Shown one piece after another: positions 3,005 to 62,434 of a stretch of DNA of 64,000 nt. The stretch's first letter is position 1, and each line of letters starts with the position of its first letter. The DNA is from Myxococcales bacterium (lineage in GTDB: Bacteria > Myxococcota_A > Polyangia > Polyangiales > Polyangiaceae): assembly GCA_016720545.1 (NCBI GenBank), contig JADKKK010000003.1, forward strand, positions 473,516 to 537,515, written 5' to 3'. The position numbers and the translations under genes were made by a program. The notes under the pieces were generated by a model. It saw only the letters and a list, made by a program, of their open reading frames with translations. It ran no database searches and was not told the DNA's origin.

Positions 3005-3646
3005 TCAGCTCACGCGTCGCACGAGCACGATGGGCCACTCCGGCGCGCGCTGGCTCTCGGGCAGGGTAGGGAGAGCCCCCTCGGTCGCGAAGAGCGCCTC
3101 GCGGAGGTCGGCCACGTCGCGCCATCGCACGGACCTCCGCGGGTGCAGCGCCCTCGCCACCGCGCGCGAGACCTTCGACGGGACCGGCGAGGAGAACAGC
3201 GCTCGCGCGCCGACCGGGCCGTGCGGGCCGAGCCGCGGCTCCTCGCCCGTGAGCAGAACGTAGAGCAAGGCGCCCACGACGAACACGTCGTCCTGCTCGC
3301 GCGCGACCTCGTCCGAGACGCGACCGCCGCGCAGGCTGTGAGGCGCCGGCAAATCGGCGTGGGAGTACCCCGCGCCCGCGACCGAGAGGCCGCCATCGTC
3401 CAGCAGGTCGACGCTCTCCGTGTTCACGTGACCGAGCCGCACGCCCGCAGCGTGCGCGCGCTCGACGTGAAAGAGCAGCACGTCCGCGATCCGCAGCACC
3501 TCGTCGACAGGCAGCCTCCCGCCCGCCGCCAGGCGCCTGTGCTCGAGGCTCTCGCCCGCGCGCGGCGCGGCGACCGCTCGATAGACACCCGACTCCTCGC
3601 TGACGTTGTGTGCCGCGCCCATTTCGACCTCCGCGTGGGGGTTCAT
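3005..3646 (-). CDS. Protein-kinase-like C-lobe only protein, a likely pseudokinase fragment (213 aa).
   Basis: It matches Ser/Thr kinase subdomains VIa-XI (LRIADVLLFHVERAHAAGVRLGHVNTESVDLLDDGG...). HRD is replaced by HVN and DFG by AGA. There is no N-lobe or Gly-loop. Confidence 0.55.
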   Translation of the reverse strand: MNPHAEVEMGAAHNVSEESGVYRAVAAPRAGESLEHRRLAAGGRLPVDEVLRIADVLLFHVERAHAAGVRLGHVNTESVDLLDDGGLSVAGAGYSHADLPAPHSLRGGRVSDEVAREQDDVFVVGALLYVLLTGEEPRLGPHGPVGARALFSSPVPSKVSRAVARALHPRRSVRWRDVADLREALFATEGALPTLPESQRAPEWPIVLVRRVS

Positions 3647-11163: not shown

Positions 11164-11323
11164 CTAGAGCGCCGAACCGCTTGATTCGGTCGGCCTTTCG
11201 CCGATTTACGTCGCCGTACTTCGTTGCTCCTCCTCGCCTAGCAGCAGTAGGACTCGTCGTCGCGCCCCGCACGGCTCGCAACTCGGCGAAAATCCTCGGT
11301 CATCAAGCGGTTCGGCGCTCTAG
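11164..11323. mobile_element. MITE-like element (160 bp) with perfect 22-bp terminal inverted repeats.
   Basis: CTAGAGCGCCGAACCGCTTGAT at 11164-11185 and its exact reverse complement ATCAAGCGGTTCGGCGCTCTAG at 11302-11323, read directly from the sequence. There is no internal ORF. It lies in the convergent intergenic gap directly after a stop codon. Confidence 0.6.
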
Positions 11324-11446
11324 AAAGGGTCGCCTCGTCTCCTCCGAGCGAGAGGCCGTCGTCCACCCGACCTTGAAGGGCGTCCAGGGCCGCGCGGGCT
11401 CCGCCAGTTACGCGGTCCAGCCGTTCAAGCCTGGACGGGCGGTGGC

Positions 11447-19407: not shown

Positions 19408-19527
19408 ATGTATCTCGTCCTCTCGAAGAAGCCCCGTAAGACCAACCGCACCAAGACGAAGCGCTTTCGCGCCAAGCTGAAGGCGAAGGATCGCGGGCGT
19501 CGCGCGCGCATCTACCAGGGCGAGTAG
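19408..19527 (+). CDS. Putative small highly basic protein (39 aa): MYLVLSKKPRKTNRTKTKRFRAKLKAKDRGRRARIYQGE.
   Basis: Not on the track. GGAG 7 nt upstream of the ATG. High GC3. Confidence 0.35.
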   Translation: MYLVLSKKPRKTNRTKTKRFRAKLKAKDRGRRARIYQGE

Positions 19528-19595
19528 CCTTCCGCGCCGCCAAAGGCGCCGCGTCGAACTTCAGGGTGCTCGCTCTCCGGCGGGCGCCCTGTTTT

Positions 19596-19678
19596 CGTCT
19601 CCCCTCCCCCTCTCCCCAGTCCCTCACCCCTCTCCCTCTCCGTCTCCCTCTCCCTCTCCCTCTCCCTCTCCCTCTCGC
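19596..19678. repeat. (TCTCCC)n hexanucleotide microsatellite, about 10 units with 1-2 variants.
   Basis: Read directly: ctctccctctccgtctccctctccctctccctctccctctccctctcgcgc. Confidence 0.65.
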
Positions 19679-20038
19679 GCGGGAGCACCGAGCGTGGGTG
19701 GGGCCCTCGGCCGCGGGTGGGAGGATCCGCCTGTCCGAGGTCGTCGTTCTCGCGCGGCCACACGGACCACCCAGCCCCGGACCGCGATCACGCCCCGCTC
19801 ATCGCGCGGAACGACGCCGAGTTGCGGAGCAACTGTCTTTCTGCCGGGGGTGAACGATTTTTTTCGGGGGGCGATTTGGGGCGTGGGACGGCTACCGCGC
19901 CGACGGGCGACTTCGCGCGGGGCGGCGCGTAGGCGGCTTGCTTGCTCGTCGTCGGGGTGCCCTGCGGGCGGACCCGGGACCCCGCCGCCCGAGCCCGAGG
20001 GCGAGAGGGAACCTGCGTTCGTTCCTTCGTCGCAGCCC

Positions 20039-20347
<309 letters not shown>

Positions 20348-20491
20348 TCAAAGATAGCTCCGGACCGAGATACAAGGGGCCCTCCCGCGGACGAGGGCCC
20401 CACCCACGCGGGTGGCACCGCGCGCTCCCCCACCCGTCCCCGCGCACCGCGCGCACCTCCCCCCGCACCGCACCCCCGCGCCCCCAGCCCG

Positions 20492-32152: not shown

Positions 32153-33400
32153 GTGACCACCGAGATCGTGTACCTGACCGACGTCGAGGGGCGCTGGGAC
32201 AAGCTCGCGGACGCGCTGAGCGGTCACGTGGGGGTCAGCCTGCGCGGGGACCACATCGAGGTCGCCGAGGACGCGACCCTCGTCTTTGGGGGCGACGCGA
32301 CCGATCGCGGGAGCGCGGGGCGGCGCGTGATGCGGGCGCTGCTGGACGCCAAGATGCGTCACCCAAGCCGCGTGGCGCTCCTCGCGGGGAATCGCGATCT
32401 GAACAAGCTGCGCCTGCGAGTCGAGCTCTGCGGCAGGCCGCCCGAGCGCGCGCCTACGGAGGTGCGCCAGGGGCCGCGGGCCGAGCTCCTCCGGTGGCTC
32501 TTCACGAACACGATGGGCGCGCGCGAAGCGTTCGACAACCGGGCGATCGAGCTCGACGTCACCGGCGCCGGCGCCGACGACGCGGTCGTGGGCTCGTTCC
32601 TCGACGACGTGGGTCGCGACGGTCTGACGACCCGTTACCTCGCGCAATGCCAGCTCGGCGTTCGGTTCGACGAGACCCTGTTCGTGCACGGCGGCGTCAC
32701 CTCCGAGAGCCTGGGTCACGTCCCCGGTCTTCGTTCGAGCGCGAGCTCGCGCGCACGCGAGAGCGTCGACGAATGGCTCGAGGCCCTGAACCGCTGGTAC
32801 GCCGAGCAGCTCGACGCCTACGCGGGCGCGCGCGACCTCGAGAGCGGCGCCTACGAGCCTATCGTCGCGTACCAGGCGCCCGTTCCCGGCACGCGACGGC
32901 ACCAAGCGAGCGTCGTGTATGGCCGCCTCGCCGACGCGCACAACAACCCCGAGCTGCCGCCGGCGGACGTGCGCGCGGCGCTGCGGCGGAGCGGCGTCTC
33001 TCGGCTCGTGGTGGGGCACACGCCGACCGGCGACGTGCCCGTGGTGCTGCGCGCGGAGGCCGAGCGCTTCGAGCTCGTGTGCGCCGACAACTCGTACGGG
33101 CGCCTGGAGCGCGGGCCCCGCGTGGTGGTGCGCGGCGACGAGCTCACTATGGAGGGGAGCGCGCGGCTCGACGGCGGCGACGAGGCGCGCGCCCTGACGA
33201 GGCTCTCGCTCGCGGAGCGCAGTGGGCCGATCGGGCTACGCGATCGCAGCACGGGACACCTCGTGGGCGGGCGCCTCGCGGGCGACCAGGTGTACCTCTA
33301 CCGCTCGGCCGGGGGCTTCGTGGTCGAACAGCTCGCGCAGGCGACCTCGGAGGCGGCGGGGCGACCGCTGGCGGAGCCGGCCGAGCGCACGCCGGGCTAG
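32153..33400 (+). CDS. Calcineurin-like metallophosphoesterase.
   Basis: GDATDRG, GNRD, and VGHTP motifs. GTG start. Its TAG stop is embedded in the CTAG of the following repeat element. Confidence 0.75.
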   Translation: MTTEIVYLTDVEGRWDKLADALSGHVGVSLRGDHIEVAEDATLVFGGDATDRGSAGRRVMRALLDAKMRHPSRVALLAGNRDLNKLRLRVELCGRPPERAPTEVRQGPRAELLRWLFTNTMGAREAFDNRAIELDVTGAGADDAVVGSFLDDVGRDGLTTRYLAQCQLGVRFDETLFVHGGVTSESLGHVPGLRSSASSRARESVDEWLEALNRWYAEQLDAYAGARDLESGAYEPIVAYQAPVPGTRRHQASVVYGRLADAHNNPELPPADVRAALRRSGVSRLVVGHTPTGDVPVVLRAEAERFELVCADNSYGRLERGPRVVVRGDELTMEGSARLDGGDEARALTRLSLAERSGPIGLRDRSTGHLVGGRLAGDQVYLYRSAGGFVVEQLAQATSEAAGRPLAEPAERTPG

Positions 33401-33402
33401 CA

Positions 33403-33582
33403 GCCCGTTGATTGACTCCCGTCGGCCCGTCGCCGCCGCATCCCGACCGCGGTCGTTGCGATCCTGCGGTGCGTGCTCACCTAGAAACGCCCACCTGGAA
33501 CACGCTCCGCGCGCTCCTCGGATCGCGCCTTGGCGGGCCGGGCGCGGACGACGCCGGGCCTCGGTCCGTAAATCCACAGGCT
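33403..33582. mobile_element. MITE-like element (~180 bp) of the CTAG/…TTGAT family with imperfect terminal inverted repeats.
   Basis: Left end CTAGCAGCCCGTTGAT; right end ATCCACAGGCTGCTAG (13/16 match to the inverse of the left end). Related ends occur at 11164, 29345-29396 and 43178-43270. Confidence 0.45.
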
Positions 33583-33599
33583 GCTAGCTAGACCTCCCC

Positions 33600-34290
33600 G
33601 CGTGACGAGCGGCTAGTCCCCTGGAAGCGTGATCCCTTCCAGAAGTCGCGCGGCTCGGCCTTTCGCCACAAGGGAGCGAGGGGGTGTCCCGTTTTCGGCG
33701 GCGGTGGGAGGATACTCATGTTCGAGGGTCGGCGTTCTCGCGCGGTCACACCCGAAACCACTGTCCCCTGAGCGCAAAGCGCCGCCTCCACCGCGCGGAA
33801 CGACGTCCGAGTTGAGACGGCCCGCCGCCGCCGAAAACGGGCACCCCCTCGCTCCTCGGAATGACACCGAAGACCGGACTCTGATACGAACCACGACTCC
33901 AGGGACTAGTCTCCTGGAAGCGTGATCCCTTCCAGAAGTCGCGCGGCTCGGCCTTTCGCCACAAAGGGAGCGAGGGGTGTCCCGTTTCCGGCGGGGGGGG
34001 GGGGATGTTCGAGGGTCGGCGTTCGCGCGGTCACACCCGAAACCACTGTCCCCTGAGCGCAAGCGCCGCCTCCACCGCGCGGAACGACGTCCGAGTTGAG
34101 GACGGGCCCGCCGCCGCCGAAAACGGGGCACCCCCTCGCTCCTCGGAATGACACCGAAGACCCGACTTCTGATACGAACCACGACTCCAGGGGACTAGCT
34201 AGTCTCCTGGAAGCGTGATCCCTTCCAGAAGTCGCGCGGCTCGGCCTTTCGCCACAAGGGAGCGAGGGGGTGTCCCGTTTTCGGCGGCGT
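33600..34290. repeat. Tandem direct repeat, ~295-bp unit x 2.3 copies, each unit carrying a ~30-bp internal inverted repeat, a 7-bp hairpin and near-palindromic ends at ACTAGT.
   Basis: Units start at about 33606, 33905 and 34197, each beginning (c)tagtcYcctggaagcgtgatcccttccagaagtcgcgcggctcggcctttcgccaca…. Internally GGGAGCGAGGGGGTGTCCCGTTTTCGGCGGCGG pairs with CCGCCGCCGAAAACGGGCACCCCCTCGCTCC about 110 nt downstream. Copy 2 carries a G10 tract. Confidence 0.7.
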
Positions 34291-34470
34291 GAAAGCCCGG
34301 GGCAGGGAAAGCTCCGGGTGGCGTTGCGCGAAGCCCGCCGCAGCGGCGGGCTGTTTCGGCTCTCGTCGCGACCTTGACGGCGAGCCCGCCCCGCGGGCTT
34401 TGAGCGGGTTGATCCCCGGATTTCCCTGCGGGCTTTCAGCCCGGTGGCGGCTAACCGGGATGGGCCCCCC

Positions 34471-34683
34471 TCAGTTCGGCTGGCCCTCGGGGTCGTCCGC
34501 CGTTCGTCCGGTGGTGCACCGGGCCACGCACTGCTGCTGCTGCTCGCCGCAGTCGTTGTAGTTCGTGCCCGACGGCGCCTTCCGCACACAGTCGTTGTAC
34601 TGCTTGTCGCAGGCCGCGGTGCACACCGAGTTGCACCCGCCCGCGAGCGTGGGCCGCGAGCGCGAGCGCGAGCGCGAAGGCAA
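34471..34683 (-). pseudogene. Small Cys-rich peptide gene (mature part …CNSVCTAACDKQYNDCVRKAPSGTNYNDCGEQQQQCVARCTTG…) apparently separated by a frameshift from its signal peptide.
   Basis: The strongly GC3-biased Cys-rich frame has no ATG/GTG start. A good signal peptide (GTG-SPRRPRPRLPLAFALALALAAHA) lies just upstream in the -1 frame, and the junction falls in a (GCGCTC)3-4 repeat. Confidence 0.35.
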
Positions 34684-34754: not shown

Positions 34755-36776
34755 GTGGCGATCATGGCAACCTCGGCGCCGCGCGGCGCGCGCGACCCCG
34801 GACTCGGCGCAGTCGAGCACCACAAGACCCTCTGCAACCGCGACTGTCCCGACGTGTGCGGCATCGTCGCGACTGTGGAGGGCGGTCGCGTGACGCGCCT
34901 CCGGGGCGATCCCGAGCACCCCATCACGCGCGGCTTCTTGTGCCACCGCACGAGCCATTTCTTGGAGACGCAGTACGACCCCGCGCGGCTCACCACGCCG
35001 CTGTGGCGCGCGCGGCTCGACGACGAATTTCAGCCCATTTCGTGGGAAGAGGCGCTCACCCGCGCCGCCGAGTCGCTCCTTCGGATACGCGCCGAATCCG
35101 GCCCCGCGGCCATTTTTCATTACCGAAGCGGCGGCTCCCTGGGGCTCTTGAAGCACCTCTCGGACTACTTCTTCGAGCGCTTCGGCCCGGTGACGCAGAA
35201 GCGCGGCGACATCTGCTCGGGCGCGGGCGACGCGGCGCAGCTGCTCGATTTCGGCGAGGAGGACAGCCGCGATCTGTCCGAGCTGAAAGATGCAAAGCAC
35301 ATCCTTCTGTGGGGGAAGAACGTCTTCGTCTCGAGCCCACACCTCATCCCGCTCTTGAACGAGGCGCGGCGGCGCGGGACGACCCTCGCGCTCATCGACC
35401 CCGTCCACCACAAGACCGCGTCGATCTGCGACCTGGTCGCCCAGCCCCGCCCTGGCGGTGATTTCGCGCTCGCCATGGCGGTCGGGCGGCGGCTCTTCGA
35501 GCTCGGCCTCACCGACCCCGAGGCCGCCACCTACTGCGACCACCTGGCGGAGCTGCGCGCCCTCTGCTTCTCCCGGAGCCTGGAGGCCTGGCGGGAAGAG
35601 GCCGACGTGCCGCTCGAGGCCATCGACGCGCTCGCGCGGCGCCTCGGCGACGGCCCCACCACGGTGTTCATCGGCTGGGGCATGGGGCGGAGGCAAAACG
35701 GCGGGGCCATCGTGCGCGCGCTCGACGCGCTCGTGGCCATCACCGGGAACCTCGGCGTGCCCGGGGGCGGCGCGTCGTTCTACTTCAAGCGGCGCGGGGC
35801 GTTCGACCTGTCGTTCATCGGGCGGGCGGCGCCGCCGCGCACGGTCTGCGAGCCGCGCTTCGGCGCCGAGGTGCTGGGCATGAGCGACCCGCCCATTCGC
35901 GCGGTGTGGATCACCGCGGGCAACCCGGTGGCCATGCTCCCGGAGTCGCGCACGATCGAGCGGGCGCTCCGCACGCGCGAGCTCGTCGTGGTGGTCGACG
36001 CGTTCCTCACCGACACGGCCCGCTGCGCGCACCTCGTGCTGCCCACCACCACCCTGCTCGAGGCCGACGATCTCCTGGGCTCCTACGGGCACGCCTTCAT
36101 CGGCGCCGCCGTGCCGGTGGTGCCGCCCCCGGAGGGCGTGAAGAGCGATCTCGGGATCGTGCAGGCCCTCGCCGAGCGCGTGGGCCTCGCGAGCGATCTC
36201 GCCGGCGACGCGCGCGCGTGGAAGGAGCGCATGCTCGCGAAGGTCGCCCCCTACGGGGTCACGCCGGAGCGCCTCGCCCAGGGCGCGGTGCCGAACCCGC
36301 TCGCGCCGAAGGCTCTTTTCGAGGGGCGGGTGTTCCCGACGCCGAGCGGAAAGGTCAACCTTATTTACGAGATGCCGACGCGAGGCGCGCCCCGCGTGAC
36401 GGAAGAGCACCCGCTCTTGCTCACCGCGCTGTCCACCGAGCGCTCGCAGTCCTCGCAGTGGGCACGCGGACGCTCGACCCCGCGCGAGGGCGCGAGCGCA
36501 GAGGAGCGCCTCGCGGTCGCCACGGTGCACCCCGACGCCGCGGCGAAGGCCGGGCTGTGCGACGGCGAGGAGGCCGTGGTCGAGGGGGGCCTCGGCTCAC
36601 TCCGCGTGCACGTGCGCTGCGACGCGAGGCAGCGCCGCGACGTGCTGCTGCTTCCGAAGGGCGGCCACCTGAGGGACGGGCGCTGCGCGAACGCGCTCAT
36701 CCCCGCCCGGACGACCGATCTGGGCGAGGGCGGCGCGCTGCACGACGAGCCGGTGCGGCTCCGGCGGCCGTCGTGA
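34755..36776 (+). CDS. Molybdopterin-dependent oxidoreductase (bis-MGD MopB superfamily; BisC / assimilatory nitrate reductase-like catalytic subunit).
   Basis: N-terminal 4Fe-4S Cys cluster (CNRDCPDVCGI…C) and MopB-family regions throughout 673 aa. Confidence 0.85.
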   Translation: MAIMATSAPRGARDPGLGAVEHHKTLCNRDCPDVCGIVATVEGGRVTRLRGDPEHPITRGFLCHRTSHFLETQYDPARLTTPLWRARLDDEFQPISWEEALTRAAESLLRIRAESGPAAIFHYRSGGSLGLLKHLSDYFFERFGPVTQKRGDICSGAGDAAQLLDFGEEDSRDLSELKDAKHILLWGKNVFVSSPHLIPLLNEARRRGTTLALIDPVHHKTASICDLVAQPRPGGDFALAMAVGRRLFELGLTDPEAATYCDHLAELRALCFSRSLEAWREEADVPLEAIDALARRLGDGPTTVFIGWGMGRRQNGGAIVRALDALVAITGNLGVPGGGASFYFKRRGAFDLSFIGRAAPPRTVCEPRFGAEVLGMSDPPIRAVWITAGNPVAMLPESRTIERALRTRELVVVVDAFLTDTARCAHLVLPTTTLLEADDLLGSYGHAFIGAAVPVVPPPEGVKSDLGIVQALAERVGLASDLAGDARAWKERMLAKVAPYGVTPERLAQGAVPNPLAPKALFEGRVFPTPSGKVNLIYEMPTRGAPRVTEEHPLLLTALSTERSQSSQWARGRSTPREGASAEERLAVATVHPDAAAKAGLCDGEEAVVEGGLGSLRVHVRCDARQRRDVLLLPKGGHLRDGRCANALIPARTTDLGEGGALHDEPVRLRRPS

Positions 36777-42079: not shown

Positions 42080-43180
42080 GTGAGGTCCACCAAGCTGGTC
42101 GCGTGCGCCACCCTGCCCGTCGCGTCCGTCGCGTCCGTCGCGCTCGCCACGCTCGTCGCGCTCGTCGCGTGTGGTGGCCCGCGCAAGCACACGAGCACGG
42201 GCGAGGGCTCGAGCGCGATCCAGGGAGGCACCGAGGACGAGGTCCACACCTTCGCGGTGGCCGTGATCATGCCGGAGTCCACCTGCTCGGGGACGCTCAT
42301 CGCGCCGAACCTGGTGCTCACCGCGCGCCACTGCGTCGCCGACAGCGGCAACAGCGACGAGGTCGACTGCGCGCGCGACCGGTTCTCCGCGCCCGCGCCG
42401 GCGAGCCGCTTCTCCGTGACCACCGCGAAGGTCGTTCGCGGCAGCACGGCGCGATACCGCGTGGCGAAGATCGTCGTGCCCTCGGAGTCCAAGTTCTGCG
42501 GCAACGACATCGCCCTGCTGCAGCTCACCGACAACGTTCCTGCCTCGGAGGCGACGCCGGCCACCCCGGCGCTCGACCCGCCGATGACCTCGCACCCCCT
42601 CTACGGCACCACGGTGGCGACGCTGGGCTACGGCATTTCGGGCCCCAAGAAGACCGACGACGGCACGCGGAGGCTGCGTGAGGACGTCCCCATCCAGTGC
42701 ACGCCGGGCGATCCCGAGAAGAGCTGCCGCCTCTCGGACTTCGACATCACCCCCACCGAGTTCGTCGCCGGCGACGGCCTGTGCTCGGGCGACTCCGGCG
42801 GCAGCGCGTTCGACCAAGAGAGCTTCACGCGCGGGCGCCCCGTCACGTTCGGCGTGCTCTCGCGAGCCAGCGAGACCGGCTTCAAGTGCATCGATGCCGT
42901 GTTCACCCGCACCGACGCGTTCGCAGGCCTGCTCGTCGCGGCCGCGACCGAGGCCGCGGAACAGGGCGGCTATCCGCTGCCCGTGTGGGCAGGCGGGGCG
43001 GGCAGCGCCGACGCGGGGGCCGAGGGCGGGCCCGCGGCTCCCCCCACGGTGGAGGCCGCGAGCCCACCGGGAGCGGCCTGCGCGACCGGCTCGGCGGGTC
43101 GAGGCCCCTCGGGCGCCGCCCCCGCCACGCTGGTCGCGGTCCTCGCTTGCGTAGCCGCGGCGCGGAGGCGACGGCGCTAG
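42080..43180 (+). CDS. Trypsin-like (S1) serine protease lipoprotein with a C-terminal MYXO-CTERM-like sorting tail.
   Basis: LVAC lipobox. His (LTARHC), Asp, and Ser (GDSGGSAF) catalytic-triad motifs. The tail …GAACATGSAGRGPSGAAPATLVAVLACVAAARRRRR is a Cys/Gly stretch, hydrophobic helix and poly-Arg. Confidence 0.8.
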   Translation: MRSTKLVACATLPVASVASVALATLVALVACGGPRKHTSTGEGSSAIQGGTEDEVHTFAVAVIMPESTCSGTLIAPNLVLTARHCVADSGNSDEVDCARDRFSAPAPASRFSVTTAKVVRGSTARYRVAKIVVPSESKFCGNDIALLQLTDNVPASEATPATPALDPPMTSHPLYGTTVATLGYGISGPKKTDDGTRRLREDVPIQCTPGDPEKSCRLSDFDITPTEFVAGDGLCSGDSGGSAFDQESFTRGRPVTFGVLSRASETGFKCIDAVFTRTDAFAGLLVAAATEAAEQGGYPLPVWAGGAGSADAGAEGGPAAPPTVEAASPPGAACATGSAGRGPSGAAPATLVAVLACVAAARRRRR

Positions 43181-43270
43181 CAGCCCGTTGATCTGCGGAC
43201 CGAGACCTGTCGTCGTCCGCGCCCGACCCGCCGAGGCGCGAACCGATGAGCCCTGCCCAGGCTGCTACGG
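43178..43270. mobile_element. Short MITE-like/REP-like element of the CTAG…TTGAT family.
   Basis: Left end CTAGCAGCCCGTTGAT is identical to the left end of the 33403 element and includes the protease TAG stop. The right end is degenerate (…CCCAGGCTGCTACGG). Confidence 0.35.
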
Positions 43271-58175: not shown

Positions 58176-59470
58176 GGCGCCACCTCCAGCTCGGACTGCG
58201 ACAGCCCCGCGGGGCCGTCATTCACTCCCGCCGCTCCGCCTACGCCTCCCGCTCCCCCGGCTCCTGCCTTCAGCGTCCCGTCTCCCGTGGGCTTCGTTCC
58301 CTTGTAGACTACAGCTACCGAGATCCCGCCCGCTCCGCCAGCTCCCGCTCCGCCCGCTCCGCCCTTCCCGCCGTCTCCCCCGCCGCAGCCCGGGGCAGCC
58401 ACCTCGGCCGCCCCAGGTCCGCCCCCGCCCCCGGTACCCCCGGTACCCCCGGTACCCCCGGCAGCGGCCGTGAGCGTCACGTTCGTCATCGTCACGTTCG
58501 AGCTCACGCTCAGCAGCGCGATGCTCCCGCCTCCGCTCTTGCCCCCCTTCCCTCCCGTACCCCCGCATCCCCCGCAGGCGCCTCCGCCTCCAAAGCTGTC
58601 CGCTCCGCGTGAGCCTCCGCCCCCGCCACCTTGACCGGGCAGTCCGCTCGCTCCCGCGGGCGCCTCCGACGGCGTCCACTCCCCGCTCCCGGATATCCCT
58701 CCCGGCGTCGTCACCTTCGCAGCTGGCGCTCCCTCGGCTCGCTCTGCTCCGGTGTTCCCCGAGCCGTTCGGCTCCGCAGCTACGCAGCTCGCTAGGGCGA
58801 CTCCACCCGCTCCGTCGGTCGGCGCGACCCCGCCCAGCGCCTCGGCTCCGCTCCCAGCCGTGATCCAATGGGGCGCCGCCGCCCCCCCTCCGGATCCGCC
58901 TCCCGAGCTGCACGTGCACGGCTTCGCCGCTCCCCCGCGCTCGCGCTCGCCGGGTTCCGTTCCCGTTCCCCGTCGCGTACGTCCCCGTCGTCCCGCCCGC
59001 TCCAGCCTCCCCAGCGAATCCACCCTTCGCCTCCACTCCCACCTTCCGTAGGCTCACCTTCACCGCCTCCACAGCCCACACTCCCACGCTCGTACGCGAC
59101 CCCGCCGTCCCCGCCGCTCCTTCGATGTCCAGCTCCGCCAGCGTCGCCGTCACCTTCCCTATCTTCACCGCGTACTCTGGCTTCGTCCCCACCACCTTCG
59201 CTCGCCCTCCAGCCTTCCCGAAGTCGCACGTCACTCCCGAGTACACCTCCACGTCGCTCTTCACCTCCACGCTCTCCGCGTACGTCCCCTCGCACACCAC
59301 CACCCGCCCGCGACCCGCAGAGAGCCCCTTCCCCACCGTCTTGTAGGGCTTCGTCCTCGTCCCCGCGTTCCCGTCGTCCCCACTCGGCGACACGTACACT
59401 CCGTAGCTGTCCACTAGGCACTTCCTCAGGGTTCTTCACTGGCTCGTTCGGCGTCTCGCACCCGCCCCCG
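58172..59470 (-). pseudogene. Beta-helix (DUF1565-like) / Gly-rich repeat protein, tandem copy 1. N-terminally truncated (no signal peptide or start) and frameshifted.
   Basis: The unit begins mid-domain (…GCETPNEPVKNPEE, with an extra G against the other copies) directly after the stop of copy 2. The N-part frame 58218..59414 shifts at about 58950 into the C-part frame 58172..59023 (…GGTGGTGG…SELEVAP*). Confidence 0.55.
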
Positions 59471-59473
59471 GCC

Positions 59474-60954
59474 TCACGGCGCCACCTCCAGCTCGGACTG
59501 CGACAGCCCCGCGGGGCCGTCATTCACTCCCGCCGCTCCGCCTACGCCTCCCGCTCCCCCGGCTCCTGCCTTCAGCGTCCCGTCTCCCGTCGGCTTCGTT
59601 CCCTTGTACACTACAGCTACCGAGATCCCGCCCGCTCCGCCCGCTCCCGCTCCGCCCGCTCCGCCCTTCCCGCCGTCTCCCCCGCCGCAGCCGGAGAGCG
59701 AGCCACCTCCAGCCGCCCCGGGTCCGCCCCCGCCCCCGGTACCCCCGGTACCCCCGGTACCCCCGGTACCCCCGGTACCCCCGGCAGCGGCCGTGAGCGT
59801 CACGTTCGTCATCGTCACGTTCGAGCTCACGCTCAGCAGCGCGATGCTCCCGCCTCCGCTCTTGCCCCCCTTCCCTCCCGTACCCCCGCATCCCCCGCAG
59901 GCGCCTCCGCCTCCAAAGCTGTCCGCTCCGCGTGAGCCTCCGCCCCCGCCACCTTGACCGGGCAGTCCGCTCGCTCCCGCGGGCGCCTCCGACGGCGTCC
60001 ACTCCCCGCTCCCGGATATCCCTCCCGGCGTCGTCACCTTCGCAGCTGGCGCTCCCTCGGCTCGGTCTGCTCCGGTGTTCCCCGAGCCGTTCGGCTCCGC
60101 AGCTACGCAGCTCGCTAGTGCGACTCCACCCGCTCCGTCGGTCGGCGCCACTCCGCCCAGCGCCTCGAGCCCGCTCCCAGCCGTATCCAATGGAGCGCCG
60201 CCTCGGGCCCCAGCGGTCACGCCTCCCGAGCTGCACGTGCACGGCTTCGCCGCTCCCCCCGCGCTCGCGCTCGCCGGGTTCCCGTTCCCGTTCCCCGTCG
60301 CGTACGTCCCCGTCGTCCCGCCCGCTCCAGCCTCCCCAGCGAATCCACCCTTCGCCTCCACTCCCACCTTCCGTAGGCTCACCTTCACCGCCTCCACAGC
60401 CCACACTCCCACGCTCGTACGCGACCCCGCCGTCCCCGCCGCTCCTTCGATGTCCAGCTCCGCCAGCGTCGCCGTCACCTTCCCCACTCTCACCGCGTAC
60501 TCTGGCTTCGTCCCCACCACCTTCGCTCGCCCTCCAGCCTTCCCGACGTCGCTCGTCACCCCCGAGTACACCTCCACGTCGCTCTTCACCTCCACGCTCT
60601 CCGCGTACGTCCCTCGCACACCACCACCCGCCCGCGACCCGCAGAGAGCCCCTTCCCCACCGTCTTGTAGGGCTTCGTCCTCGTCCCGGGGTTCCCGTCG
60701 TCCCCACTCGGCGACACGTACACTCCGTAGCTGTCCACTAGGCACTTCTCAGGGTTCTTCACTGGCTCGTTCGGCGTCTCGCACCCGGGCGGAACCACCA
60801 CGTCCACTCCCCCGTCCACCGACCCCTCCCCGACCCCGCCCTCTCCCACCCCTCCGTCCGAAGCCTCCGTCACGTAATAGTTGTTCGTCGTGCACCCCGA
60901 CCCCGAAACCAGGCCCGCCAGCACGAACGCGCACAGCGCCACCCCCGGCCTCAC
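59474..60954 (-). CDS. Secreted beta-helix (DUF1565-like) lipoprotein with a C-terminal Gly-rich repeat region, tandem copy 2. Apparent -1 frameshift at a C-run near 60615.
   Basis: GTG start in a GTGA overlap with the copy-3 stop. Signal peptide/lipobox MRPGVALCAFVLAGLVSGSGC. The N-domain YVSPSGDDGNPGTRTKPYKTVGKGLSAGRGRVVVCEG then continues in another frame (TYAESVEVK…). CCC here corresponds to CCCC in copies 1 and 3. Confidence 0.6.
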
Positions 60955-62434
60955 GGCGCCACCTCCAGCTCGGACTGCGACAGCCCCGCGGGGCCGTCAT
61001 TCACTCCCGCCGCTCCTCCCACGCCTCCCGCTCCCCCCGCTCCCGCCTTCAGCGTCGCGTCTCCCGTCGGCTTCGTTCCCTTGTAGACTACAGCTACCGA
61101 GATCCCGCCCGCTCCGCCCGCTCCCGCTCCGCCCGCTCCGCCCTTCCCGCCGTCTCCCCCGCCGCAGCCCGGCGTTCCGCCACCGGCCACCCCACCAAGT
61201 CCGCCCCCGCCCCCGGTACCCCCGGTACCCCCGGTACCCCCCGGTCCCCCCGGCAGCGGCCGTGAGCGTCACGTTCGTCATCGTCACGTGCGAGCTCACG
61301 CTCAGCAGCGCGATGCTCCCGCCTCCGCCCTTGCCCCCCTTCCCTCCCGTACCCCCGCATCCCCCGCAGCCGCCTCCGCCTCCAAAGCTGTCCGCCCCGC
61401 GTGACCCACCGCCGCCACCCCCTTGACCGGGCAGTCCGCTCGCTCCCGCGGCCGCCTCCGACGGCGTCCCCTCCCGCTCCCGGATATCCCTCCCGGCGTC
61501 GTCACCTTCGCAGCTGGCGCTCCTCGGCTCGGTCTGCTCCGGTGTTCCCCGAGCCGTTCGGCTCCGCAGCTACGCAGCTCGCTAGTGCGACTCCACCCGC
61601 TCCGTCGGTCGGCGCCACTCCGCCGAGCGCCTCGGCTCCGCTCCCAGCCGTGATCAACGGGGCGCCGCCGCCCCCTCCTCCGGATCCGCCTCCCGAGCTG
61701 CACGTGCACGGCTTCGCCGCTCCCCCCGCGCTCGCGCTCGCCGGGTTCCCGTTCCCGTTCCCCGTCGCGTACGTCCCTGTCGTCCCGCCCGCTCCAGCCT
61801 CCCCACCGAATCCACCCTTCGCCTCCACTCCCACCTTCCGAAGGCTCACCTTCACCGCCTCCACAGCCCACACTCCCACGCTCGTACGCGACCCCGCCGT
61901 CCCCGCCGCTCCTTCGATGTCCAGCTCCGCCAGCGTCGCCGTCACCTTCCCCACCTTCACCGCGTACTCGGGCTTCGTCCCCACCACCTTCGCTCGCCCT
62001 CCAGCCTTCCCGAAGTCGCACGTCACTCCCGAGTACACCTCCACGTCGCTCTTCACCTCCACGCTCTCCGCGTACGTCCCCTCGCACACCACCACCCGCC
62101 CGCGACCCGCAGAGAGCCCCTTCCCCACCGTCTTGTAGGGCTTCGTCCTCGTCCCGGGGTTCCCGTCGTCCCCACTCGGCGACACGTACACTCCGTAGCT
62201 GTCCACTAGGCACTTCTCAGGGTTCTTCACTGGCTCGTTCGGCGTCTCGCACCCGGGCGGAACCACCACGTCCACTCCCCCGTCCACCGACCCCTCCCCG
62301 ACCCCGCCCTCTCCCACCCCTCCGTCCGACTCGGCGTCGCACGTTCCGTTGTCGCAGAGCGACGGAATCGAAAAACACCCCGCGAACACGAGCGCGGTGG
62401 TCGTCGCGAGCCCAAGTGCAATGATCTTCTTCAT
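60951..62434 (-). CDS. Secreted beta-helix (DUF1565-like) lipoprotein with a Gly-rich repeat C-terminus, tandem copy 3. At least two single-base deletions in C-runs near 61440-61520 break the frame.
   Basis: Start MKKIIALGLATTTALVFAGC (lipobox) at 62434 with an intact N-domain. The frame is lost after …NTGADRAE (stop at 61502). The C-terminal Gly-rich part and …SELEVAP* (ending 60951) are in other frames. The corresponding copy-2 DNA has one more C at each site. Confidence 0.6.

What the first reader, a model, noticed from the sequence alone, without database searches (positions are those of the whole stretch)
33600..34290. 2.3 tandem copies of a ~295-bp unit with long internal inverted repeats, a structured non-coding tandem repeat or tandemly inserted MITE
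The unit boundaries fall on ACTAGT in near-palindromic context (…CTCCAGGGACTAGTCTCCTGGAAG…). Each unit contains a 7-bp hairpin (CTGGAAG-cgtgatcc-CTTCCAG). It also contains a ~30-bp inverted repeat (GGGAGCGAGGGGGTGTCCCGTTTTCGGCGGCGG pairing with CCGCCGCCGAAAACGGGCACCCCCTCGCTCC) separated by ~110 nt, enough to form a long stem-loop RNA or a cruciform. Copy 2 has a G10 homopolymer where copy 1 has GGTGGGAGGATACTCAT. Possible roles are a tandemly duplicated structured sRNA, a CTAG-targeting MITE inserted repeatedly, or a recombination hotspot. No ORF spans the units consistently.
Basis: seen in the sequence. Interest (0 to 1): 0.6.

Follow-up and report, generated by a model that had tools for sequence, protein, structure and literature searches.

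The report
Tandem copies of a CTAG-targeting MITE
The tandem repeat is two-and-a-bit adjacent copies of a ~300-bp hairpin-shaped miniature transposable element that inserts at CTAG sites all over this myxobacterial genome, so it is an ordinary kind of mobile DNA, though its inner hairpin is unusually well conserved.

Summary
The repeat is real: TRF finds 33612-34289, period 293, 2.3 copies. It is not a local duplication of unique sequence. The whole ~302-bp unit (CTAG-TCCCCTGGAAG...CTCCAGGGGA-CTAG) recurs at 93-99% identity in about 22 metagenomic contigs. At least 16 of these have unrelated flanks, and the ends are always sharp and bounded by CTAG. For 6 of 20 termini the TAG is the stop codon of the neighbouring gene. 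It is therefore a non-autonomous, CTAG-specific MITE of an uncultured Polyangiaceae-like myxobacterium. No autonomous partner was found.

Copy number depends on the assembly. Another assembly of the same species has 1.3 copies, and a third has a 29-nt poly-G artefact inside the array. The window's central 245 nt, including the "G10", differs from the clean unit mostly by 1-nt homopolymer indels, so it is probably consensus error.

The inner ~185 nt is an older hairpin module found without the outer shell in other Polyangiaceae. It has 30-36-bp arms around a conserved core. Between two subfamilies, 17 of 54 pairs carry compensatory changes. A second-subfamily copy at 19692-20409 is split by an IS110-family remnant. 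No Rfam family matches. Tests to separate an RNA-level from a DNA-level constraint were inconclusive. Verdict: a new member of a known kind, of low to moderate interest.

The parts
33613..33909 (+). Copy 1 of the ~300-bp MITE (CTAG...CTAG). Its right-hand CTAG is shared with copy 2.
   Evidence: TRF and direct repeats D1-D8. Positions 1-203 are identical to the clean L007 unit; the right third carries five 1-nt homopolymer deletions. CM R1 scores the inner module 33673-33855 at 154.8 bits.
33906..34198 (+). Copy 2 of the MITE. The left 164 nt are degraded (G10 tract, 11 indel columns). The right part is identical to L007 apart from one substitution (G>A at 34148).
   Evidence: CM R1 scores the inner module 33967-34142 at only 99.9 bits.
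34199..34289 (+). Copy 3: a truncated copy holding the 91-nt left end (outer terminus plus the left arm of the inner hairpin). It is preceded by its own CTAG, so junction 2/3 reads CTAGCTAG.
   Evidence: Identical to the partial copy in L007. It ends exactly at the end of the left arm, which is 97% complementary to the right arm of copy 2 (I3).
33613..33648 (+). Outer left terminal inverted repeat (CTAGTCCCCTGGAAGCGTGATCCCTTCCAGAAGTCG). Its partners are the right ends at about 33874-33909 and 34163-34198.
   Evidence: I2, I5, I6. Termini are conserved and sharply bounded in about 20 dispersed copies.
33673..33855 (+). Inner hairpin module of copy 1: arms 33673-33708 and 33821-33855 enclosing a conserved core of about 112 nt (GGGAGGA...GTTCTCGCGCGG - 46 nt - CCGCGCGGAACGACG.CCGAGTTG).
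   Evidence: The module is found without the outer shell in L004 (76% identity).
19692..19829 (+). Left arm and core of a second-subfamily (type B) copy of the inner module. It is preceded by a (CCCTCT)n microsatellite at 19602-19676.
   Evidence: BLASTN 73% identity to unit positions 63-203, E=1.7e-14. Its closest relatives L002, L005 and L052 are 81-84% identical. CM hit 95.7 bits.
19830..20375 (-). A ~546-bp internally deleted IS110-family element inserted between the core and the right arm of the type-B copy. It carries an 81-aa transposase C-terminal ORF at 20039-20284.
   Evidence: Pfam PF02371 Transposase_20, 23.4 bits. A full-length version with a 342-aa transposase ORF lies at the identical point of the core in L046.
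20376..20409 (+). Displaced right arm of the type-B copy.
   Evidence: 30 nt, 93% complementary to 19692-19721, lying 658 nt away. The arm is contiguous with the core in L005, L052 and L015.
33584..33591 (.). CTAGCTAG octamer 22 nt upstream of the array. It may be an excision footprint or a doubled target.
   Evidence: CTAGCTAG occurs 5 times in 335 kb against 0.07 expected, each time at or near the end of a CTAG-bounded element.
11164..11327 (.). A second, unrelated CTAG-bounded palindromic miniature element (~160 nt, terminal repeat AGCGCCGAACCGCTTGAT).
   Evidence: 97.5% identical copy in L053, where it abuts the first element and shares a CTAG. It folds as a near-perfect hairpin of -82 kcal/mol.

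Best explanation
The unit is a ~302-bp non-autonomous transposable element (MITE) of an uncultured Polyangiaceae-like myxobacterium. It has 13-bp perfect terminal inverted repeats (about 36 bp imperfect) and inserts specifically at CTAG, so every copy is flanked by CTAG on both sides.

Two mechanisms would give that pattern and cannot be told apart here. One is a 4-bp CTAG duplication, as in IS5-family elements. The other is a TA duplication inside CTAG, as in IS630/Tc1-mariner elements.

CTAG is rare in this 72% G+C genome, and each insertion regenerates CTAG at both of its ends. Resident copies therefore become preferred targets. The array arose by re-insertion next to a resident copy, by unequal recombination between the 92-nt repeated left ends, or by both. 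This step is inferred.

Because CTAG contains the TAG stop codon, the element often lands exactly on stop codons. It then becomes the immediate 3' flank of a gene, where its very stable hairpin could affect mRNA 3' ends. That effect is also inferred.

The element is composite. An outer CTAG-bounded shell encloses an older ~185-nt hairpin module that also exists on its own in other Polyangiaceae and has kept its pairing through many compensatory changes.
For: Dispersal:
- About 22 contigs from two metagenome series carry the unit at 93-99% identity. There are 16 distinct right flanks and 7 left flanks.
- The termini CTAGTC[CT]CCTGGA are found only at element ends in 375 kb of held sequence.
- Contigs frequently break inside the element, which is typical of a multi-copy repeat.

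Target:
- CTAG bounds essentially every terminus.
- CTAG is under-represented: 42 observed against 164 expected in the window.
- For 6 of 20 outer termini, the terminal TAG closes a long ORF with GC3 of at least 0.8.
- 24 of 33 informative flanks are gene 3' ends.

Non-coding:
- No conserved ORF exists. The reading frame after the SD-like GGGAGGA differs between members, and ATG is replaced by CTG in type B.

Clustering elsewhere:
- L036 has a unit, CTAGCTAG, then a 72-nt partial unit. L053 has the element abutting a second CTAG-bounded element.

Precedent:
- IS5-family MITEPsy1 inserts at CTAG/YTAA with a 4-nt duplication (PMC3189936).
- IS630-family elements insert at TA with a TA duplication (PMC2170065).

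Lineage-specific presence:
- The nearest orthologous locus (77% identity, L055) lacks the whole repeat-rich spacer.
Against: - No autonomous element with the same termini and a transposase was found in the window or in any fetched locus. Viral contigs, plasmids and phages also gave nothing.
- No clean occupied/empty site pair was recovered, so transposition and the length of the duplication are inferred from flank diversity rather than shown.
- The most conserved part of the family is the inner core, not the termini. That is the reverse of what is usual for MITEs and suggests the inner module has a function of its own.
- Junction 2/3 reads CTAGCTAG, which neither simple re-insertion nor unequal crossing-over predicts.
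Confidence: 0.8

Rival explanations
1. The array's extra copy is an assembly artefact. The true structure in this species would be one full unit plus the 92-nt partial unit, as in L007. On this reading, the window's middle copy with its G10 tract arose from mis-assembly or poor polishing of a repeat.
For: - L007 has 1.3 clean copies, and L006 has a 29-nt poly-G run inside the array.
- All window-specific differences lie at 33815-34060 and are dominated by 1-nt homopolymer indels. Real independent copies differ by substitutions only.
- Short-read contigs break here.
Against: - Collapse of tandem repeats is the commoner assembly error, so 1.3 copies could be the collapsed form and 2.3 the true one with a badly polished centre.
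- Junction 2/3 (CTAGCTAG) differs from junction 1/2 (CTAG), which a pure duplication artefact would not create. The same CTAGCTAG junction exists at another locus, L036.
- Real copy-number polymorphism between strains is also possible.
Confidence: 0.35
2. The functional entity is a structured RNA. The inner ~185-nt hairpin module would be a conserved non-coding RNA, for example an sRNA or a 3'-UTR stabiliser/terminator-like element, transcribed from the + strand. Its mobility would be secondary.
For: - Covariation is strong: 96% of cells are paired against 44-49% when partners are slid, 17 of 54 pairs carry double changes, and the covariation score is 0.36 against 0.03-0.07.
- The core is invariant (a 16-bp helix plus conserved internal-loop motifs) while the arms diverge by about 40%.
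- G.U outnumbers A.C on the + strand, 10 pairs to 3.
- The element sits at gene 3' ends, co-directional with the upstream gene in 8 of 11 cases.
- I read a terminator-like hairpin on the + strand at about 34333-34360 in the sequence. The terminator scan did not list it.
Against: - No Rfam family matches, even at E<=10.
- No sigma-70-type promoter-like site was found.
- The G.U asymmetry is not significant (p=0.09), and the structure was predicted on that strand.
- Polymorphisms among young copies show no preference for pairing.
- Folding energy favours the + strand in 4 members and the - strand in 3.
- Inverted repeats of DNA transposons also co-vary, because one protein must bind both ends.
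- The compensatory changes come essentially from a single A/B split, so they represent few independent events.
Confidence: 0.15
3. A simple local tandem duplication of unique intergenic sequence by slippage or unequal crossing-over, with no mobility.
For: The copies are head to tail, and the 92-nt partial unit could have served as the recombination substrate.
Against: The same unit, with the same sharp ends, occurs at 16 or more unrelated sites. Unequal crossing-over may still explain the change from 1.3 to 2.3 copies, but not the origin of the unit.
Confidence: 0.03
4. The element moves as single-stranded DNA through an HUH (IS200/IS605-like or RAYT-like) enzyme that inserts 3' of a CTAG and cleaves after its own terminal CTAG. 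On this reading there is no target duplication, and head-to-tail arrays arise naturally.
For: - The whole element is a hairpin.
- A single CTAG separates tandem copies.
- CTAGCTAG at several ends fits 'target CTAG plus the element's own CTAG'.
Against: - The element has true terminal inverted repeats that run right to the ends (13 bp perfect), which is typical of DDE transposons rather than of subterminal-hairpin elements.
- No HUH gene was seen nearby.
Confidence: 0.08

Closest known systems
MITEPsy1 / IS5-family MITEs (Pseudomonas syringae; PMC3189936)
   Same: A non-coding miniature element with terminal inverted repeats. It inserts at CTAG (or YTAA), which then appears on both sides, and is dispersed in the genome.
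   Different: MITEPsy1 is 100 nt and has a known parent (ISPsy2) with matching ends. Ours is 302 nt, almost entirely self-complementary, has unrelated termini, and has no identified parent.
IS630/Tc1-mariner-derived MITEs
   Same: Insertion at a TA that is duplicated; in our element CTAG contains that TA. Cut-and-paste excision would leave short footprints, which could explain the CTAGCTAG octamers. (From my own knowledge: IS630 itself prefers CTAG.)
   Different: The length of the duplication could not be determined here, and no IS630-family transposase with these ends was found.
Long palindromic intergenic repeats of other bacteria: ERIC/IRU, YPAL, Correia/NEMIS, RUP, bcr1 (from my own knowledge)
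   Same: Elements of 100-300 bp that fold as long hairpins, lie in intergenic regions (often 3' of genes), and are co-transcribed with neighbours where they can alter mRNA stability.
   Different: There is no sequence relationship. Ours has strict CTAG specificity and a nested architecture, with an outer shell around an older conserved hairpin module.
REP/BIME elements as targets of IS110/IS1111-family elements (from my own knowledge)
   Same: An IS110-family element sits at exactly the same position of the type-B hairpin module in two different contexts. This resembles the way IS110-family elements target repeated palindromes.
   Different: The module is about 185 nt rather than 20-40 nt, and no RAYT-type gene is associated with it.

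Membership tests
MITE (non-autonomous DNA transposon) | Small size and no coding capacity | tested here: met
   The unit is 302 bp. The only ORF after the SD-like motif is 17 codons, and its frame and start codon are not conserved across members.
MITE (non-autonomous DNA transposon) | Terminal inverted repeats | tested here: met
   CTAGTCCCCTGGA / TCCAGGGGACTAG is perfect over 13 bp, extending to about 36 nt at 78-81% complementarity.
MITE (non-autonomous DNA transposon) | Many dispersed copies with unrelated flanks | tested here: met
   16 distinct right flanks and 7 left flanks in metagenomic contigs, at 93-99% identity.
MITE (non-autonomous DNA transposon) | Target-site duplication shown by comparing an occupied site with an empty one | tested here: inconclusive
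   CTAG flanks both ends of every complete copy, but no empty site was recovered. The nearest orthologous locus has lost synteny exactly there. A 4-bp duplication and a 2-bp duplication give the same sequence.
MITE (non-autonomous DNA transposon) | A cognate autonomous element with the same termini | tested here: not met
   None was found in 375 kb of held sequence, or in viral contigs, plasmids or phages. The complete source genome could not be searched.
IS5-family-derived MITE | A 4-bp duplication of CTAG/YTAR and IS5-like ends | not testable with these tools
   It needs an empty site or the parent element. The termini do not resemble the MITEPsy1/ISPsy2 ends quoted in PMC3189936.
IS630/Tc1-mariner-derived MITE | A TA duplication and a DDE/DDD transposase that binds the ends | not testable with these tools
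   Same limitation. The CTAGCTAG octamers are compatible with excision footprints but do not prove them.
Known structured RNA family (Rfam) | A match to a curated covariance model | tested here: not met
   No hit at gathering score across the whole window. At E<=10, only chance-level hits to eukaryotic and viral families appeared.
Structured non-coding RNA (generic) | Covariation supporting a conserved secondary structure | tested here: met
   17 of 54 pairs carry compensatory changes. In the shuffle control, 0 of 500 shuffles reached the observed covariation score or percentage paired, and 3 of 500 reached the observed 17 pairs with a change on both sides. The slid-partner control gave clearly lower values on every measure. 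DNA-level constraints on inverted repeats would give the same signal.
Structured non-coding RNA (generic) | Strand-specific signal or evidence of expression | tested here: inconclusive
   G.U against A.C is 10 pairs to 3, p=0.09. Polymorphisms among copies are uninformative. Strand stability is mixed. No promoter-like site was found. No expression data were available.
IS110-family bridge-RNA region | The structured non-coding region is part of an IS110/IS1111 element next to its recombinase | tested here: not met
   The module occurs intact without any transposase in L004, L005, L015 and L052. In the window and in L046 the IS interrupts the module rather than containing it.

The most novel reading that the evidence does not exclude
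The inner ~185-nt hairpin module would be a functional structured element of Polyangiaceae in its own right. It comprises variable but always complementary 30-36-bp arms, an invariant 16-bp helix with a bulged U, conserved internal-loop motifs (GGGAGGA, CUGUYCGAGG, CCGAGUUG) and a hypervariable C-rich apical region that is 45-47 nt long in six of the seven members (36 nt in L015). It could be an RNA acting at mRNA 3' ends, or a DNA hairpin recognised by a recombinase (it is a precise IS110-family target). On this reading it has been captured as cargo by at least two different mobile shells, which spread it through genomes.
Probability: 0.2. Interest if true: 0.55.

Novelty: new member of a known kind. 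Interest (0 to 1): 0.3.

Why it matters
- Annotation: it explains a repeat that breaks assemblies of an uncultured, wastewater-associated myxobacterium and causes visible errors in three independent assemblies (poly-G runs, homopolymer indels, uncertain copy number).
- Biology: it adds a CTAG-specific MITE family to a phylum where the one literature search I ran found no paper describing one. It also shows a neat consequence of target choice in a high-G+C genome. Because CTAG is rare and contains TAG, the element lands on stop codons and on its own ends, which builds arrays and repeat-rich gene 3' regions.
- Open question: the deep conservation and covariation of the inner module is the one feature worth following up. 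If it is a functional RNA or a recombinase target, that would be a case of a structured element spread by MITEs.

Tried and rejected
- Known RNA families and tRNA/tmRNA: nothing found.
- Small protein encoded by the core: an SD-like GGGAGGA lies 7 nt before an ATG. Rejected, because the frame shifts between members, ATG becomes CTG in type B, and the central region varies freely.
- Core as the bridge-RNA or non-coding end of the adjacent IS110-family element: rejected. The IS splits an otherwise intact module, and other copies have no transposase.
- Retron msr/msd and 6S-like RNA: considered from the long-hairpin shape. Rejected, because there is no reverse transcriptase gene and the element has many copies per genome.
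- Strand tests for RNA against DNA constraint: G.U/A.C asymmetry, polymorphisms among about 23 young copies, and +/- folding energies. All were inconclusive.
- Orientation relative to genes: this shows a preference for gene 3' ends, but most sites are convergent intergenic regions where orientation is uninformative.
- Empty-site search through orthologues of the flanking phosphoesterase: synteny ends exactly at the gene's stop codon.
- Search for an autonomous partner by terminal motif in all held sequence, viral contigs, plasmids and phages: nothing found.
- Covariance model R1 searched against the window and 44 loci: no further divergent members.
- About 20 of the 41 metagenome hits were chance matches to the 20-nt motif inside coding sequence and were discarded. 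The Verrucomicrobiota hit L001 was likewise a chance match.

Full report
**Observation**

Tandem Repeats Finder reports a repeat at 33612-34289 with period 293, 2.3 copies, 92% matches and score 1152. It is by far the strongest array in the window.

The unit boundaries fall on CTAG at 33613, 33906 and 34195/34199. CTAG is under-represented in this 72% G+C sequence, with 42 observed against 164 expected. Eight of the 42 lie within 33397-34199.

Each unit has three inverted-repeat features:
- a 36-37-nt terminal inverted repeat (I2/I5/I6);
- a 31-36-nt internal inverted repeat about 110 nt apart (I1, I3, I4, I7);
- the small CTGGAAG/CTTCCAG hairpin.

One unit folds into a nearly end-to-end hairpin. 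The energy is -160 kcal/mol on the + strand (z=-8.2) and -175 kcal/mol on the - strand (z=-7.6). The third copy is only the first 91 nt and stops exactly at the end of the left internal arm.

**Assembly caveat**

The flanking phosphoesterase protein (32153-33400) is encoded identically on at least ten other contigs. Their flanks are 99% or more identical to the window, so they come from the same species.

- L007 (GCA_016704525.1) has one clean unit plus the 92-nt partial unit.
- L006 (GCA_963852875.1) has about 1.65 copies and then a run of 29 G, which is an obvious artefact.
- Six short-read contigs stop before or inside the array.

Compared with the clean L007 unit, the window is identical over copy 1 positions 1-203, and over copy 2 positions 165-302 apart from one substitution (G>A at 34148). 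Every other difference lies at 33815-34060: 16 indel columns, mostly 1-nt changes in homopolymers plus the G10 replacement, and 7 substitutions. Independent genuine copies such as L021 differ from the unit by substitutions only.

I conclude that the G10 and the apparent 92% identity between copies are most likely consensus errors in the part of the array that reads cannot anchor. Whether this strain has 1.3 or 2.3 copies cannot be decided without reads.

**The unit is a dispersed element**

A scan of metagenome contigs with a 20-nt core motif returned 41 loci. About 22 of them carry the complete unit, outer ends included, at 93-99% identity. Many sit at contig ends, as expected for a repeat that breaks assemblies.

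Homology always stops at the same bases: CTAG-TCCCCTGGAAG on the left and CTCCAGGGGA-CTAG on the right. There are 16 different right flanks and 7 different left flanks. The terminal motif occurs nowhere else in 375 kb of held sequence.

For 6 of 20 independent outer termini, the terminal TAG is the stop codon of a long ORF with GC3 of at least 0.8. 24 of 33 informative flanks are gene 3' ends.

L036 shows a unit, CTAGCTAG and then a 72-nt partial unit at an unrelated locus. So the layout of a full copy plus a truncated left end recurs.

These are the properties of a MITE with strict CTAG specificity. Both known routes to such a pattern have precedents. IS5-family MITEPsy1 inserts at CTAG/YTAA with a 4-nt duplication (PMC3189936). 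IS630/Tc1-mariner elements duplicate the TA of their target (PMC2170065). The two give identical occupied and empty sequences, and I found neither an empty site nor the autonomous parent, so the superfamily is open.

**How the array formed (inferred)**

Each insertion regenerates CTAG on both sides in a genome where CTAG occurs about once per 2 kb. Resident copies are therefore good targets. Insertion into a flanking CTAG gives a head-to-tail pair sharing one CTAG, as at junction 1/2.

The 1.3-copy form (A-B-C-A) also provides 92-nt direct repeats for unequal recombination to 2.3 copies.

The right arm of one copy and the left arm of the next form a ~180-bp near-perfect palindrome centred on the junction (I3 and I6). 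That may explain why downstream copies are truncated just at the end of the arm.

The octamer CTAGCTAG occurs five times in 335 kb against 0.07 expected, always at or next to the end of a CTAG-bounded element: window 11160, 33584 and 34195, L036, and L044. It may be an excision footprint or a doubled target. I could not decide between these.

**The unit is composite**

A scan of one genome per species with a 22-nt core motif found four hits in two Polyangiaceae MAGs, plus one chance hit.

- L004 carries only unit positions 62-244, that is the internal arms plus the core, at 76% identity in a different context.
- A second subfamily, type B, is represented by window 19692-19829, L002, L005, L052 and L015. 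It has the same core but arms of different sequence that are still complementary.
- Type-B copies share nothing beyond the element itself; their neighbouring genes are unrelated. Four of them are preceded by a CT-rich microsatellite.

In a seven-sequence alignment, the consensus structure has 54 pairs:
- 96% of cells are paired, against 44-49% when the partner is slid by 1-3 columns;
- 17 pairs carry changes on both sides;
- the covariation score is 0.36, against 0.03-0.07 for slid structures and 0.14 for shuffles.

The innermost 16-bp helix and the motifs GGGAGGA and CCGAGTTG are invariant. The apical region varies freely in sequence but is 45-47 nt long in six of the seven members (36 nt in L015). 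For a MITE it is unusual that the interior is more conserved than the ends.

**RNA or DNA?**

No Rfam family matches. No sigma-70-type promoter-like site was found.

- On the displayed strand, G.U cells outnumber A.C, 10 pairs to 3. This gives p=0.09, and the structure was predicted on that strand.
- Substitutions among about 23 young copies show no preference for keeping pairs: 3 G.U events, 2 A.C events and 10 other mismatches.
- Folding energy favours the + strand in four members and the - strand in three.

The pairing constraint is therefore real, but it may act on RNA, on single-stranded or cruciform DNA, or simply reflect that both arms bind one protein. The compensatory changes also derive mainly from one A/B split, so they represent few independent events.

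**The 19.7-kb copy and the IS110-family element**

The arms of the window's type-B copy (19692-19721 and 20380-20409) are 93% complementary but lie 658 nt apart. Between the core and the right arm lies a ~546-bp remnant. It encodes the last 81 residues of an IS110-family transposase (PF02371).

L046 has a full-length version, with a 342-aa ORF, at the identical point of the core but with a different far flank. I had considered that the core might be the IS's own non-coding (bridge-RNA) region. Intact modules without any transposase in L004, L005, L015 and L052 rule that out. Rather, the module is a target of this IS.

**Context**

The array lies between the convergent phosphoesterase gene (32153-33400, +) and a small Cys-rich ORF (34471-34683, -). 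That ORF lies ahead of a molybdopterin oxidoreductase gene (34755-36776, +).

The 215 nt between the stop codon and the array are themselves a patchwork of CTAG-delimited pieces. These pieces are related to sequences at window 43176-43251 and in L044.

In the closest other species (77% orthologue, L055), the upstream genes are syntenic. There the phosphoesterase gene ends in TAA and abuts a different gene, and none of the spacer or the element is present.

Homologues of the flanking protein are named by their sources as Polyangiaceae, Hyalangium and Archangium. Together with the MAG titles, this places the organism in the Myxococcota, probably Polyangiaceae.

**Verdict**

It is a previously undescribed CTAG-specific MITE family of an uncultured myxobacterium, so a new member of a known kind. 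My one literature search on MITEs in myxobacteria found no paper describing one.

The tandem arrangement follows naturally from the element's target choice.

The residual interest lies in the conserved, covarying inner hairpin module and its use as an IS110-family target. Interest 0.3.

Noticed in passing
window 11164-11327 (also L053 153-312): A second, unrelated CTAG-bounded palindromic miniature element of ~160 nt, with terminal repeat AGCGCCGAACCGCTTGAT and a hairpin of -82 kcal/mol. In L053 it abuts the first element and shares a CTAG with it. In the window it is preceded by CTAGCTAG. It contains GCCGAGTTGCG, which resembles the CCGAGTTGCGG motif of the type-B core.
   Followed up: partly
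window 19830-20375 (81-aa ORF at 20039-20284, minus strand); L046 about 250-1612: An internally deleted IS110-family element inserted between the core and the right arm of the type-B hairpin module. A full-length copy with a 342-aa transposase ORF sits at the identical position in L046 with a different far flank, which suggests site-specific targeting of this module.
   Followed up: partly
window 11160, 33584, 34195; L036 4429; L044 143: The octamer CTAGCTAG occurs 5 times in 335 kb against 0.07 expected, always at or within 22 nt of the end of a CTAG-bounded element. It may be an excision footprint or a doubled target site.
   Followed up: partly
window 33397-33612: The spacer between the phosphoesterase stop codon and the array is a patchwork of CTAG-delimited fragments. 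33513-33588 is 85% identical to window 43251-43176 (reverse strand), and 33397-33482 is 79% identical to L044 143-228. These are probably remnants of further small repeats.
   Followed up: partly
window 19602-19676 (also L002 about 3515-3590, L005 about 1200-1300, L052): CT-rich microsatellites, (CCCTCT)n or (CTCTCT)n, immediately precede type-B copies of the hairpin module in four unrelated contexts. The tract may be part of that element.
   Followed up: no
window about 31191/31192: Seven other assemblies of this species that cover the site (L006-L011 and L013) carry 231 extra nt here, equal to 77 codons in frame, inside the polysaccharide deacetylase gene. The window therefore has a strain- or assembly-specific in-frame deletion, between short CGAGG(A/T)GC repeats.
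   Followed up: partly
L033 about 220-260: A (CTAA)n microsatellite of at least 10 units directly abuts the left end of an element copy in a ~70% G+C contig. CTAA is the alternative target of IS5-type elements.
   Followed up: no
window 19408-19527: A 39-codon ORF encoding a very basic peptide (MYLVLSKKPRKTNRTKTKRFRAKLKAKDRGRRARIYQGE), followed by a terminator-like hairpin at about 19563-19598, just upstream of the type-B copy. It has no Pfam match.
   Followed up: no
window 58326-61253: 9-nt tandem repeats (CCCCCGGTA, CCGCCCGCT) recur in three blocks about 1.4 kb apart. They were seen in the TRF table only.
   Followed up: no
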